Of a stretch of 6,679 bases of DNA, positions 1 to 5,900 are shown piece by piece; positions within the stretch are counted from its first letter, which is position 1, and each line of letters begins with the position of its first letter. The notes beneath the pieces were generated by a model. That model made no database searches and was not told the origin of the DNA. It saw only the letters and a list, made by a program, of their open reading frames with translations. A program made the translations under genes and the position numbers. This DNA is from a virus (Duplodnaviria; Heunggongvirae; Uroviricota; Caudoviricetes): positions 1 to 6,679 of the IMG/VR virus record IMGVR_UViG_3300029006_000021. One strand, given 5' to 3'.

Positions 1-31
1 GGGCGATTAACATCGCCTTTTGCTGCTTCAT
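1..31 (-). CDS. hokD: Hok/Gef-family small membrane toxin, N-terminal 10 codons only; gene continues beyond the left edge of the window
   Basis: Minus-strand ATG at 29-31 preceded by SD-like AAGGAGA about 9 nt upstream; visible translation MKQQKAMLIA matches the N-terminus of HokD/RelF as I remember it (HokC/Gef would read MKQHKAMIVA). Only 10 residues are in the window, so the call is tentative. Confidence 0.45.
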   Translation of the reverse strand, partial: MKQQKAMLIA

Positions 32-152
32 AGCCTGCTTCTCCTTGCCTTTCGGCACGTAAGAGGCTAACCTACATGTGCAAAGCATGAAATTGGCCTC
101 AGATTAATGTTAAGCGTCTTGCCGGACGCGTAATGTTAACTGGGGCTTTTCT

Positions 153-188
153 CTGTCTGCCTTACGGTGGCATGCCCGAGGCAGACAG
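153..188. other. 10-bp inverted repeat (CTGTCTGCCT / AGGCAGACAG) with 16-nt spacer containing the palindrome GGCATGCC, in the leader upstream of the hok-like gene
   Basis: Read directly. Not followed by a U-tract on either strand, so not a typical terminator; could be part of hok-type mRNA folding or a protein-binding site. Confidence 0.35.
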
Positions 189-276
189 CCTCAAGCACCC
201 GCAGCAATTCTACTTAACTCTCGCTTTACCGCAAACCGTTTTTACCCGATATGGGAATCCCCATATCGCAATGAAA

Positions 277-996: not shown

Positions 997-1299
997 TCAC
1001 TCTCCTTTGATGCGAATGCCAGCAACACGTAGTGCATGTTCTAAGTCAGCCAGATAAAGCCAGCTGCCATTTTCCTTAGGTATCATAATATGGCGCTCAT
1101 CAGCATTTATCGGGTGTCCATAGCGAAGTTCATAACCAACCGGTAACTGGACTTCCCTTGCCTCCAGTTCTGCAATGCGCTTGTCTTTGGCCTCCAGTTC
1201 ATCAAGGACCTTTTTTATGGCTGGCGAATGTGTCATATAACTCGCAGCCGGACCAGCAAGCATTATCCTGAGCTGTACTTTCGCTTTTTCTATTTTCAT
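997..1299 (-). CDS. Hypothetical phage protein, 100 aa, with predicted coiled-coil-like segment (LDELEAKDKRIAELEAREV)
   Basis: ORF track; ATG at 1297-1299 directly abuts the TAG stop (1300-1302) of the upstream gene; SD-like AAGGTAA upstream. Confidence 0.7.
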   Translation of the reverse strand: MKIEKAKVQLRIMLAGPAASYMTHSPAIKKVLDELEAKDKRIAELEAREVQLPVGYELRYGHPINADERHIMIPKENGSWLYLADLEHALRVAGIRIKGE

Positions 1300-1593
1300 C
1301 TACGCCATTACCTTGTTTCGCAACCAGACACAAACCGGGCCATCTTCAGTATCATGAATGGAGCCAATAAACCAGCCTTCTCCCTCTGGTCGTTCCGGTT
1401 CCCAGGCGGAAATACCGGAGTCATCTGCATCTGAATTAAAATCATCTTCATCCATACTGCAAATAGTCCACTGAAGATTATTTACCTTCATCCAGGCGTC
1501 AAATTCCTCGGTGGAAATATATTCACGACCTGCGCAAAACTTTTCATACTCCGGATGTGTCCAGCAGCCATATTCATCACGTTCTACCTGCAT
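1300..1593 (-). CDS. Strongly acidic, Trp-rich small protein, 97 aa (about 23 Asp/Glu vs 8 Arg/Lys); function unknown
   Basis: Track ORF 1300..1677 trimmed to the ATG at 1591-1593, which lies 4 nt after the stop of the upstream DUF4406-like gene; the longer start would overlap that gene by about 80 nt. Composition counted from the translation. The SD is weak, so the start is uncertain. Confidence 0.6.
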   Translation of the reverse strand: MQVERDEYGCWTHPEYEKFCAGREYISTEEFDAWMKVNNLQWTICSMDEDDFNSDADDSGISAWEPERPEGEGWFIGSIHDTEDGPVCVWLRNKVMA

Positions 1594-1597
1594 TTCT

Positions 1598-1903
1598 TTA
1601 ATTTCGCTCACTTGTTGCCTCCTGGAAAATAACCGCATGTCCCAGTTTCTCCGCCAGTGCCAGCTCAGCCCTTGCACCTGCCGACTGCTGCCAGCCTTTC
1701 AGCATGTAAACCGCATCCACGCAACGGAGCATTGCCATGCAAATATCCATGTAGTGTGGCTGAGTCAGCCCGTCCGGAAGTACTGCCGGATTTAAAACGG
1801 TATGCCCTTCCCGTTTCAGCACCTCTTCCGCTTTGTGAAATGCCTCGCGGTTAAAATTTTCATATCCCGTCATCGGACCGGCGATATAAACCCTCACCCT
1901 CAC
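1598..1903 (-). CDS. DUF4406-like protein (nucleoside 2-deoxyribosyltransferase-like fold), 101 aa
   Basis: ORF track; N-terminal VYIAGPM motif typical of this family; GTG start at 1901-1903 with consensus SD AGGAGG 8 nt upstream, overlapping the TGA stop of the upstream gene (GTGA). Confidence 0.8.
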   Translation of the reverse strand: MRVRVYIAGPMTGYENFNREAFHKAEEVLKREGHTVLNPAVLPDGLTQPHYMDICMAMLRCVDAVYMLKGWQQSAGARAELALAEKLGHAVIFQEATSERN

Positions 1904-2154
1904 TCCTGAACCCTCCTGTCGAAATAAACGTAGTTATTCACTGCGCCCAACTTCATCCCAAACTTTTCGGCAATTTCCCGTCGGGGTACACCACGCTGAT
2001 GCAGTTGCCGCGCCAGCTCAATATCACGCTGTGAACATTTGGCTGACTGGTGATAATCACCCCGTAACATCATGCTGAGACCCAGTTCCCGCGCTTTCGT
2101 CCTGACGGCTGACTCACTACGGCCAATCAGATAACCGATGCTTTCGACTTTCAT
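1900..2154 (-). CDS. Small DNA-binding protein with two helix-turn-helix-like segments, 84 aa (track ORF 1900..2304 trimmed to first ATG)
   Basis: Segments SIGYLIGRSESAVRTKARELGL and VPRREIAEKFGMKLGAVNNYV look HTH-like. First in-frame ATG at 2152-2154; the track start at 2304 is non-ATG and would overlap the upstream 244-aa gene by 90 nt. SD weak, so the start is uncertain. Confidence 0.55.
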   Translation of the reverse strand: MKVESIGYLIGRSESAVRTKARELGLSMMLRGDYHQSAKCSQRDIELARQLHQRGVPRREIAEKFGMKLGAVNNYVYFDRRVQE

Positions 2155-2213
2155 CGTTCCCGCACACTGCCGGAGTATCAGGATTTCAGCCCGGCACCAC
2201 TTCTTCCAGCCAC

Positions 2214-2948
2214 TCACCGCTGCTGCTCTCTGGTGGCGGTAATATCCCGGAGAATATCCCTGTGTTTGTTCAGTTCCCGTAGCGCAGCACAGACTCGCTC
2301 CCACTTCTGAACATCACTTTTCGCCCGGCGCAGCTCGCGGTTAGCCACATGCAGCGATGGTAGAATCAGGTCATCTGCTTTCGCTTCAGTGACCGATGGC
2401 TGTAACTTCACAATGTCTTCCTCGATTTCTGTTTTCATTTCTTCCTGTGTCGTTGTTTCCTGGACTGGTAACGCAACTCCTGCTGGCTGAGGAAAGGCTT
2501 TACCATCCGTTTCCGCTGCGGATGCAGCTTCCGGCTCTGCTGGTAAATTATCGCCCGGCATGCAGTAACGAAATTTACCGCCCTGATTCACGCGAATCAG
2601 ACGCCCTTTGCTGATTGCCATTGCCAGCGATGAATTCGCCCGGCGGGAGGTAATTCCGAACATCAGTGCCAGTTCATCCGCCGTTTGTGGGCCATGTTGT
2701 TCAATCGCCTCTGTCAGCATTTGCGCTGTCACTTTCGGTACCGGTGACACCGGTTCACTTTCACCAGCCTGAGTCAGCCACCACATCGACCCCTTGTTAT
2801 CCGCTTCACCGCGGCGCTTCAGTTTCCACAGTTCGTTGACCGCCTCTTCACGGCTGATTCCAAGGCGCGATGCCACTACCTGTGAAGAGGCTTTTTTCAG
2901 TGCTTTCAGTGCGTCAAATACGGTTTCCATTAAAACGTCCTCCGACAA
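2214..2948 (-). CDS. Prophage protein with two tandem winged-helix-like domains and an acidic/Pro-rich linker, 244 aa (resembles the DUF1627-type proteins found after replication genes in enterobacterial prophages)
   Basis: ORF track; ATG at 2946-2948 with SD GGAGGA about 7 nt upstream, 3 nt after the stop of the DnaC-like gene. Domain assignment is from reading the sequence, not from a search. Confidence 0.8.
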
Positions 2949-5433: not shown

Positions 5434-5487
5434 TACCTTTGGGTTGTTTACCTTACGGTAATCACATCTATTATTTACCTATGGACA
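5410..5487. promoter_or_regulatory. Operator cluster: four TACC-N4-GGTA-type palindromes (5410-5421 TACCTATAGGTA, perfect; 5434-5445 TACCTTTGGGTT; 5450-5461 TACCTTACGGTA; 5476-5487 TACCTATGGACA); candidate repressor binding sites
   Basis: Read directly; they sit between divergent repressor and Cro-like genes and overlap the predicted promoter hexamers, an arrangement like lambda OR1-OR3. Confidence 0.55.
5447..5474 (+). promoter_or_regulatory. PRM-like promoter for the repressor gene: -35 TTTACC (5447-5452), 16-bp spacer, -10 TATTAT (5469-5474); predicted start at or near the ATG at 5481 (leaderless mRNA)
   Basis: Hexamers read directly; there is no SD upstream of ATG 5481. Lambda cI is transcribed as a leaderless mRNA from PRM, which is the precedent. 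Confidence 0.4.
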
Positions 5488-5900
5488 AATATGAATTTAG
5501 ACGACAGCAGCTCATCAAAATTCGTGATGAGAAATGCGATGGTAAAGCGGTTAACGTAGCCAGAAAGATCGGTCGCGAGCCTTCTTATGTATCAAGAATG
5601 TTGTACCCAGAGGGGAAAAAGGGAAAAAAACGGATCGCTGATGATATGGTGGAGATTATCGAAGAGTCCTTTGGGTTACCCCGAGGATGGATGGATGGTA
5701 TCGTTTCATCATCAACGAACACAGCCTCCAATTATGAAACAAGGGTTCTAACGCCACGACAACGTATTTTTTTAGATCTCCTAGACGAGTTGCCAGAAAG
5801 TGAAGCGGATAACTTATTAAAAACTCTTGAAGAGAAAAAACAGTATTACAATATGATCTACGAAGAAATCCGTAAAAAGAAAGCACAAAACGCATCATAA
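5481..5900 (+). CDS. racR: RacR-like prophage repressor (cI analogue): N-terminal HTH, no S24 peptidase domain; 139 aa from ATG 5481 (alternative TTG at 5439 gives 153 aa)
   Basis: ORF track 5439..5900; HTH-like GKAVNVARKIGREPSYVSRML; divergent from the Cro-like gene with an operator-rich intergenic region. Start uncertain. Symbol by synteny with Rac, not verified. Confidence 0.8.
   Translation: MDKYEFRRQQLIKIRDEKCDGKAVNVARKIGREPSYVSRMLYPEGKKGKKRIADDMVEIIEESFGLPRGWMDGIVSSSTNTASNYETRVLTPRQRIFLDLLDELPESEADNLLKTLEEKKQYYNMIYEEIRKKKAQNAS

What the first reader, a model, noticed from the sequence alone, without database searches (positions are those of the whole stretch)
1300..1593. Highly acidic, Trp-rich 97-aa protein: candidate DNA-mimic or anti-defence factor
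The translation has about 23 Asp/Glu against 8 Arg/Lys, with acidic clusters (MDEDDFNSDADDSG, EPERPEGEG) and six Trp. Small, strongly acidic phage early proteins are often DNA mimics that inhibit restriction enzymes or other DNA-binding defence proteins (Ocr and ArdA are precedents). Its place in an early accessory block is consistent with a host-takeover role, but this is hypothesis only.
Basis: inference. Interest (0 to 1): 0.55.

Follow-up and report, generated by a model that had tools for sequence, protein, structure and literature searches.

The report
Conserved acidic phage/plasmid protein, function untested
The flagged stretch is a real, selected gene for a small, very acidic, tryptophan-rich protein from a large uncharacterised family carried by phages, conjugative plasmids and integrative elements; indirect clues point to blocking a host DNA-handling or restriction protein, but nothing shown here proves it.

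Summary
On the minus strand, 1300-1593 encodes the 97-aa sequence described (23 D/E, 7 K/R, 6 Trp, pI 4.1). The true start is most likely GTG at 1611, giving 103 aa. The gene is under purifying selection (median dN/dS 0.14). It belongs to PHROG 1372, function unknown, with at least 981 clusters at 50% identity. It has no Pfam, NCBIfam or PADLOC match.

The family is confined to mobile elements in every locus examined. These are lambdoid, P1-like and N15-like phages, virulent phages, 2,020 plasmids (1,752 of them conjugative) and P. aeruginosa ICE-like elements. It recurs fused to Lar-type restriction-alleviation domains. In phage mEp213 it sits at the position that ral holds in lambda.

My best reading is an autonomous acidic decoy that inhibits a host nucleic-acid-binding protein, most plausibly a restriction or defence enzyme (about 0.4). 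The function remains untested.

The parts
1300..1611 (-). Coding sequence of the 103-aa acidic protein. GTG start at 1609-1611, TAG stop at 1300-1302.
   Evidence: ORF list and translation. Homologues are typically 103 aa. PGAP annotates a 312-nt CDS in the 97%-identical copy. dN/dS is 0.136. phrog_1372 match at E=1e-49.
1618..1623 (-). Shine-Dalgarno AGGAGG, 6 nt upstream of the GTG start. It lies inside the 3' end of the upstream DUF4406 gene (1598-1903), so the two genes overlap by 14 nt and are probably translationally coupled.
   Evidence: Sequence read directly. No promoter-like or terminator-like site on the minus strand between 400 and 2400.
1546..1587 (-). Conserved N-terminal motif V-x-R-D-x-x-G-x-W-T-H-P-E-Y (residues 9-22). 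G15 and H19 are invariant. R11, W17, T18 and P20 are at least 90% conserved in the curated 45-sequence alignment (T18 falls to 70% across 227 domain copies).
   Evidence: Alignments A1 and A2. Per-column statistics on 227 domain copies.
1414..1452 (-). Variable acidic loop (residues 54-66, DEDDFNSDADDSG). It varies in sequence and length across the family but stays acidic with almost no basic residues. It is the lowest-confidence part of the model.
   Evidence: Per-column acid and base fractions. pLDDT of 63 and 62 for residue blocks 51-60 and 61-70.
1318..1404 (-). Conserved C-terminal motif W-x-P-x-x-P-x-G-x-G-W-F-x-G-S-I-H-D-T-E-D-G-P-V-C-x-W-L-R (residues 70-98). It forms the predicted beta-hairpin, with an acidic tip D87/E89/D90 that is acidic in 89-94% of copies.
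   Evidence: Alignments. Strands 80-88 and 91-99 in the AF2 model. This motif alone retrieves relatives in Erwinia and Pseudomonas phages.

Best explanation
The gene encodes an autonomous, single-domain acidic decoy protein of mobile elements. A compact alpha/beta core is held together by five conserved Trp and the G-W-F-x-G-S-I-H-D-T-E-D-G-P hairpin. That core presents acidic loops: residues 54-66, residues 71-79 and the D87/E89/D90 hairpin tip. The surface is almost free of basic residues. I propose that this surface binds the positively charged, nucleic-acid-binding face of a host protein and blocks it. The most plausible target is a restriction or other defence nuclease complex. In this prophage it would be made from the rightward early operon, after the replication genes.

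Shown: the gene is real and selected; acidity is conserved; the fold has no solved relative; in every locus examined the family lies on a mobile element; it acts as a cassette with no fixed partner; it is fused to Lar-like domains.

Inferred: that it binds a host protein, that binding is electrostatic mimicry of nucleic acid, and what the target is.
For: 1. Acidity is a family trait. Across 226 domain copies the mean is D+E 21, K+R 7, net -14, median pI 4.25, with 95% below pI 5. Only R11 and R98 are conserved basic positions.

2. Distribution. The family is in temperate and virulent phages of Escherichia, Erwinia, Klebsiella, Yersinia, Pectobacterium, Pseudomonas and Nitrincola. It is in 507 IMG/VR contigs and 2,020 PLSDB plasmids, 1,752 of them conjugative. 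It is also in P. aeruginosa ICE-like elements between parA and dnaB. This spread resembles that of ArdA/KlcA-type anti-restriction genes (my own knowledge).

3. Fusions. A Lar_restr_allev domain is joined C-terminally in a 262-aa P. aeruginosa protein seen on more than 800 contigs, and N-terminally in P0143 and P0206. There is also a Tad2-like fusion.

4. Position. mEp213_045 lies on the PL operon after N and before cIII/kil, which is the slot of ral in lambda (the lambda map is my own knowledge). In Pectobacterium phage Abuela the gene is the third annotated ORF, ahead of the helicase, and in phages Ymer and Koroua the match lies within about 700 nt of a genome end.

5. Autonomy. Among 80 close relatives the flanking ORFs fall into 9 upstream and 7 downstream families, so the protein needs no fixed partner.

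6. Small, single-domain and confidently folded apart from the acidic loop.
Against: No homology or fold similarity to any solved DNA mimic or anti-restriction protein. The best-conserved residues are Trp, Gly, Pro, His and Cys rather than the acidic cluster. That pattern would also suit a ligand, metal or specific peptide site. On plasmids the gene is inside the tra operon or between finO and repA, not in the leading region. The Lar-like zinc ribbon and this domain are both promiscuous mosaic modules, so fusion is weak evidence. Most fusion partners are themselves of unknown function. I could not inspect the model's surface charge. No experiment on any member was found.
Confidence: 0.4

Rival explanations
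1. A host-physiology modulator rather than an anti-defence factor. The acidic protein would bind a core host machine such as RNA polymerase, the replisome, SSB or a recombination nuclease. The mobile element would benefit in the cell where it is expressed, as TraR/lambda Orf73 or T7 Gp2 do.
For: In a Serratia F-type plasmid the gene lies between traV and traC, the slot of traR in F (the F map is my own knowledge). In 14 of 42 species-representative loci it lies immediately upstream of traU and is co-transcribed with pilus genes expressed in the donor. In the window it follows the replication genes O and P on the rightward operon. In PY54 and a Rouxiella prophage it lies next to recombination genes. 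Other fusions are to a 3'-5' exonuclease and a DHH phosphoesterase.
Against: The partners and positions are too varied to indicate one housekeeping target. The Lar and Tad2 fusions and the ral-like position point to defence instead. There is no similarity to TraR/DksA, Gp2 or any known RNA polymerase binder.
Confidence: 0.25
2. A small enzyme, or a metal- or ligand-binding domain. The invariant H19 and C94, the near-invariant H86, and D87/E89/D90 would form an active or coordination site, and the acidity would be secondary.
For: The strongest conservation is in His, Cys, Asp, Glu, Trp and Gly positions of two motifs rather than in the acidic loop. The domain is fused to catalytic partners: exonuclease and DHH/DHHA1.
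Against: A ~100-aa fold with no match to any enzyme or metal-binding fold. No Pfam or NCBIfam catalytic family matches. In the predicted hairpin, H86 and C94 should face opposite sides of the sheet; this is inferred from strand register only, not from coordinates.
Confidence: 0.12
3. An immunity or antitoxin partner that neutralises a neighbouring nuclease.
For: In the Klebsiella IncFII(K) plasmid examined in detail, the gene overlaps by 4 nt the stop of a DUF2726 gene (PD-(D/E)XK nuclease superfamily) and is followed by a PLD/Nuc-like gene (PMC3424549). A DUF2726 gene was also listed under the match in most of the other Klebsiella plasmid rows shown. Nuclease immunity proteins are typically small and acidic (my own knowledge).
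Against: That pairing was seen in one plasmid lineage only. In 80 close relatives and 42 species loci the neighbours vary and are mostly not nucleases. In the window the upstream gene is DUF4406, a nucleoside deoxyribosyltransferase-like protein. PADLOC finds no defence or toxin model for the DUF2726 protein.
Confidence: 0.08

Closest known systems
PHROG phrog_1372 (phage protein family of unknown function)
   Same: Full-length match at E=1e-49 over residues 1-95 of the 97-aa form. This is the family the gene belongs to.
   Different: The PHROG carries no function. Its profile is longer (194 positions) because many members carry extra domains.
Ocr (T7 gp0.3) and ArdA, the classical DNA-mimic anti-restriction proteins
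   Same: Small, with a comparable negative charge density (about -0.17 per residue here). Carried by phages and conjugative plasmids. Single-gene cassettes.
Lar (Rac prophage) and Ral (lambda), restriction-alleviation proteins
   Same: Lar-type domains are fused to this domain in three architectures. The mEp213 homologue occupies the ral slot after N.
   Different: The window protein has no Lar zinc ribbon and no similarity to Lar. The link is association only, not homology.
TraR (F plasmid) / lambda Orf73, accessory host modulators
   Same: The same dual habitat: accessory slots of F-type tra operons and early regions of lambdoid phages.
   Different: TraR is a DksA-like zinc-finger protein. 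No sequence or structural similarity was found.

Membership tests
PHROG 1372 (uncharacterised phage family) | Significant full-length match to the family profile | tested here: met
   E=1e-49, 169.8 bits, residues 1-95.
Ocr (T7 gp0.3) DNA mimics | Sequence homology to Ocr | tested here: not met
   No Pfam family at E<=0.1. The family profile against all PDB chains at E<=10 returned only a Strep-tagged construct.
Ocr (T7 gp0.3) DNA mimics | Elongated, mostly helical dimer whose carboxylates trace bent B-DNA | tested here: not met
ArdA anti-restriction proteins | ArdA sequence family and three-domain elongated fold | tested here: not met
   No Pfam hit. No PDB sequence or fold hit.
ArdA anti-restriction proteins | Located in the leading region of conjugative plasmids | tested here: not met
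   Plasmid copies lie between finO and repA, between traW and traU, or between traV and traC.
Generic DNA-mimic class | Small size, pI below 5 and more than 20% Asp+Glu | tested here: met
   103 aa, pI 4.12, 24% D+E. Family median pI is 4.25. This criterion is not specific.
Generic DNA-mimic class | Competes with DNA for the binding site of a DNA-binding protein | not testable with these tools
   Needs binding or competition assays, or complex modelling.
Lar family restriction alleviation (PF14354 / TIGR03655) | Lar zinc-ribbon domain present in the protein | tested here: not met
   No hit for the window protein. The Lar domain is present only in fused relatives.
Known anti-phage defence components (PADLOC) | Match to a defence-system protein model | tested here: not met
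   0 families.

The most novel reading that the evidence does not exclude
This protein is a member of a new fold class of anti-restriction or anti-defence decoy. The class would be shared by phages, phage-plasmids, F-type conjugative plasmids (including the IncFII(K) backbones of roughly 1,500 sequenced Klebsiella plasmids) and P. aeruginosa ICEs. It would act by electrostatic mimicry of nucleic acid on a compact Trp-stapled alpha/beta scaffold and would be functionally coupled to Lar-type restriction alleviation.
Probability: 0.25. Interest if true: 0.7.

Novelty: new variant of a known kind. Interest (0 to 1): 0.5.

Why it matters
If the family is an anti-restriction or anti-defence factor, it would add a structurally new inhibitor class. 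That class is already widespread in clinically important plasmids and ICEs (Klebsiella IncFII(K), P. aeruginosa) and in Shiga-toxin prophages. It would bear on how these elements cross restriction barriers and on phage host range. It would also give an experimental handle on the poorly understood Lar/Ral type of restriction alleviation. If instead it modulates a core host machine, it would be a new tool of host takeover shared by plasmids and phages. Either way, a family of at least 981 clusters with no Pfam entry and no structural relative deserves a first experiment.

Tried and rejected
Searches that found nothing for the target:
- Pfam, NCBIfam and PADLOC scans.
- A family-profile search of all PDB sequences. 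The only hit was a Strep-tag II (WSHPQFEK), which resembles the protein's WTHPEYEK.
- BFVD, which returned only uncharacterised family members.
- Literature searches for accessions, the PHROG id and sequence motifs.
- The supplements of an accessory-gene screening paper.

Not available: the afdb50 library was not on the machine.

Rejected or left unresolved:
- A fixed operon partner. Neighbours vary.
- The DUF2726 nuclease pairing as a general explanation. It was seen in one plasmid lineage only.
- The commonest fusion partner as a functional clue. It is another uncharacterised domain with no Pfam, NCBIfam or PDB match.
- An RNA-element or regulatory reading of the region. Rfam finds nothing at the locus, and there are no promoter-like or terminator-like sites on the minus strand.

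Full report
**1. What is in the sequence**

The feature is a minus-strand gene. The six-frame ORF list shows an open frame at 1300-1677.

Its composition is D+E 23, K+R 7, Trp 6, Cys 4 and pI 4.09.

The more likely start is the GTG at 1609-1611:
- A perfect AGGAGG lies 6 nt upstream of it.
- Full-length database homologues are typically 103 aa and begin M-[SN]-x-IKE.
- PGAP annotates the 97%-identical copy in E. coli FORC_069 as a 312-nt CDS (WP_001289674.1). That CDS overlaps the upstream DUF4406 gene by 14 nt.

The stop codon directly abuts the ATG of the next ORF, an Ead/Ea22-like remnant at 997-1299. No promoter-like or terminator-like site lies on the minus strand between 400 and 2400. 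The gene is therefore an internal cistron of a long operon.

**2. Is it real**

Yes. Among 41 distinct alleles from close relatives, the median dN is 0.09, the median dS is 0.76 and dN/dS is 0.136. A profile search of 1.84 billion representatives finds 981 clusters at E<=0.001 and 419 at E<=1e-10.

Within the window it is the outlier. Its net charge is -0.165 per residue and it has 5.8% Trp. The other 12 ORFs range from -0.02 to +0.08 and carry at most 3.1% Trp.

**3. Genomic setting**

The window is the immunity and early region of a lambdoid prophage of the type that carries Shiga toxin genes. The layout is:
- a cI-like repressor on the plus strand (5439-5900);
- then, on the minus strand: cro-like, YdaT/cII-like, O-like, DnaC/P-like, DUF1627, a small DNA-binding protein, DUF4406, the target, and Ea22-like and other small ORFs.

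The gene therefore lies in the nin-like accessory block downstream of the replication genes, on the rightward early transcript. "Early accessory block" is a fair description, although it is delayed-early rather than among the first genes expressed.

**4. The family**

There is no Pfam, NCBIfam or PADLOC match. The only named family is PHROG 1372, of unknown function (E=1e-49).

Alignments show two strongly conserved motifs:
- V-x-R-D-x-x-G-x-W-T-H-P-E-Y, residues 9-22;
- W-x-P-x-x-P-x-G-x-G-W-F-x-G-S-I-H-D-T-E-D-G-P-V-C-x-W-L-R, residues 70-98.

These motifs flank a loop (residues 54-66) that varies in sequence and length.

Acidity is nevertheless a property of the whole family. Across 226 near-full-length domain copies the mean is D+E 21.3, K+R 7.3 and net -14. 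Median pI is 4.25 and 95% of copies are below pI 5. Only two positions, R11 and R98, are conserved as basic. Acidic residues are conserved at D12, E30, E36, D54, D56, E78, D87, E89 and D90. Five Trp positions are at least 86% conserved.

**5. Structure**

AlphaFold2 with a 45-sequence alignment gives mean pLDDT 81 and pTM 0.72. The model has a short strand, two helices (20-26 and 34-43), a strand (46-52), the low-confidence acidic loop, and a beta-hairpin (80-88 and 91-99).

- Foldseek against the PDB gives nothing at E<=0.001.
- BFVD returns only uncharacterised members of the same family.
- A profile search of all PDB sequences returns only a Strep-tag II, which resembles WTHPEYEK.

The protein is therefore not a homologue or fold relative of Ocr, ArdA or any other solved DNA mimic. 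I could not inspect the coordinates. Statements about where the charge sits on the surface are inference from the sequence and the secondary structure.

**6. Where else the family lives**

*Phages.* It occurs in 34 GenBank phage records. These include lambdoid coliphages, the P1-like phage-plasmid D6, the N15-like phage PY54, and phages of Erwinia, Klebsiella, Pectobacterium, Dickeya, Pseudomonas and Nitrincola. It also occurs in 507 IMG/VR contigs.

*Plasmids.* It occurs in 2,020 PLSDB plasmids, 1,752 of them conjugative.
- In the Klebsiella IncFII(K) plasmid I examined, it lies between finO and repA. It overlaps by 4 nt a DUF2726 gene (PD-(D/E)XK nuclease superfamily, PMC3424549) and precedes a PLD/Nuc-like gene.
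- In F-type plasmids of Citrobacter and Enterobacter, and in loci from Pantoea, Erwinia, Enterobacter, Citrobacter and Siccibacter genomes, it lies immediately upstream of traU. This holds for 14 of 42 species-representative loci.
- In a Serratia plasmid it lies between traV and traC.

*ICE-like elements.* In P. aeruginosa, a 262-aa protein carries this domain at its N-terminus and a Lar-type domain at its C-terminus. It is seen on more than 800 contigs, in an ICE-like block between parA and dnaB.

*No fixed partner.* Among 80 close relatives the flanking ORFs fall into 9 upstream and 7 downstream families. The gene is an autonomous cassette.

**7. Domain fusions**

About 80 of 266 collected relatives carry an N- or C-terminal extension of 45 residues or more. 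The identifiable partners are:
- Lar_restr_allev, three architectures, in both domain orders;
- Tad2-like, one case;
- Rv2179c-like 3'-5' exonuclease, two cases, confirmed in Stutzerimonas and other Pseudomonadaceae genomes;
- DHH/DHHA1 phosphoesterase;
- KTSC.

The commonest partner accounts for 19 of 81 extensions. It is another uncharacterised helical domain with no Pfam, NCBIfam or PDB match. Most other partners are PHROGs of unknown function. The domain thus behaves as one of the shuffled modules of mosaic early proteins. This limits how much weight any single fusion can carry.

**8. Positional clues**

In phage mEp213 the homologue (mEp213_045) lies on the leftward operon just after N and before cIII, kil, erf and abc2. 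In lambda that slot holds ral (my own knowledge of the lambda map).

In Pectobacterium phage Abuela it is the third annotated ORF, ahead of the helicase. In phages Ymer and Koroua the match lies within about 700 nt of a genome end. These positions are consistent with early expression.

The tra-operon positions argue the other way. Genes there are expressed with the pilus genes in the donor. The traV-traC slot is where F carries traR, a host RNA-polymerase modulator (my own knowledge).

**9. Interpretation**

My best reading, at about 0.4, is an autonomous acidic decoy. It would bind and block the nucleic-acid-binding surface of a host protein, most plausibly a restriction or other defence enzyme. 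It rests entirely on composition, distribution, fusions and position.

The rivals are:
- a modulator of a core host machine (0.25);
- a small enzyme or a metal- or ligand-binding domain built on H19, H86, C94, D87, E89 and D90 (0.12);
- an immunity partner of a neighbouring nuclease (0.08).

A chance ORF is excluded.

Membership of the Ocr, ArdA or Lar families was tested and not met. Only the non-specific compositional criteria of DNA mimics are met.

**10. Verdict**

The protein is a member of a large, uncharacterised family found only on mobile elements in the loci examined, with no structural relative. If it is an anti-defence factor, it would be a new structural variant of a known kind of system. 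Interest is moderate (0.5). A handful of standard restriction-alleviation and pull-down experiments would settle the question.

Noticed in passing
window 26-200, minus strand: Rfam RF01794 sok antitoxin RNA (117 bits, full-length model), part of a hok/sok post-segregational killing locus. By alignment with the E. coli FORC_069 locus, only about the first 30 nt of the hok CDS lie inside the window; the rest runs off the left end.
   Followed up: partly
window 1540-1563, minus strand (residues 17-24 of the 103-aa protein): The conserved WTHPEYEK closely resembles Strep-tag II (WSHPQFEK). The only PDB sequence match of the family profile was a Strep-tagged construct. This is probably coincidental.
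   Followed up: no
relatives P0173, P0178, P0179, P0183, P0170, P0260 and others (not in the window): The commonest fusion partner of the family is another uncharacterised helical domain of about 95 aa (ERxRQ..EGWT..HDD..GELA.AA.Y..WPW..WKP..RR.LVKAGAL.LAEIERLDR). It has 826 database relatives and no Pfam, NCBIfam or PDB match.
   Followed up: partly
window 997-1302, minus strand: The target's TAG stop directly abuts the ATG of a 100-aa Ead/Ea22-like ORF. PGAP marks the corresponding ORF in FORC_069 as an N-terminally truncated pseudogene. Database protein P0014 looks like a read-through fusion of the two genes (my reading of the alignment).
   Followed up: partly
L005 9999-12961 (Klebsiella IncFII(K) plasmid, between finO and repA): A conserved five-gene block: PIN7-domain protein, a hypothetical protein, a DUF2726 (PD-(D/E)XK) protein, the acidic family member (4-nt overlap) and a PLD/Nuc-like protein with DrmC-like PADLOC hits. 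It could be a plasmid nuclease or defence module with its own inhibitor.
   Followed up: partly
window 1598-1903, minus strand: The upstream, overlapping gene is a DUF4406 protein (nucleoside 2-deoxyribosyltransferase-like; Pfam E=9e-37, phrog_355). It is the upstream neighbour in only 7 of 80 close relatives, so the pairing is not obligate.
   Followed up: partly
window 1900-2304, minus strand: The listed 134-aa ORF is probably over-extended. PGAP calls a 93-aa DNA-binding protein in the homologous locus, and only residues 33-133 match the phrog_323 transcriptional regulator family.
   Followed up: no
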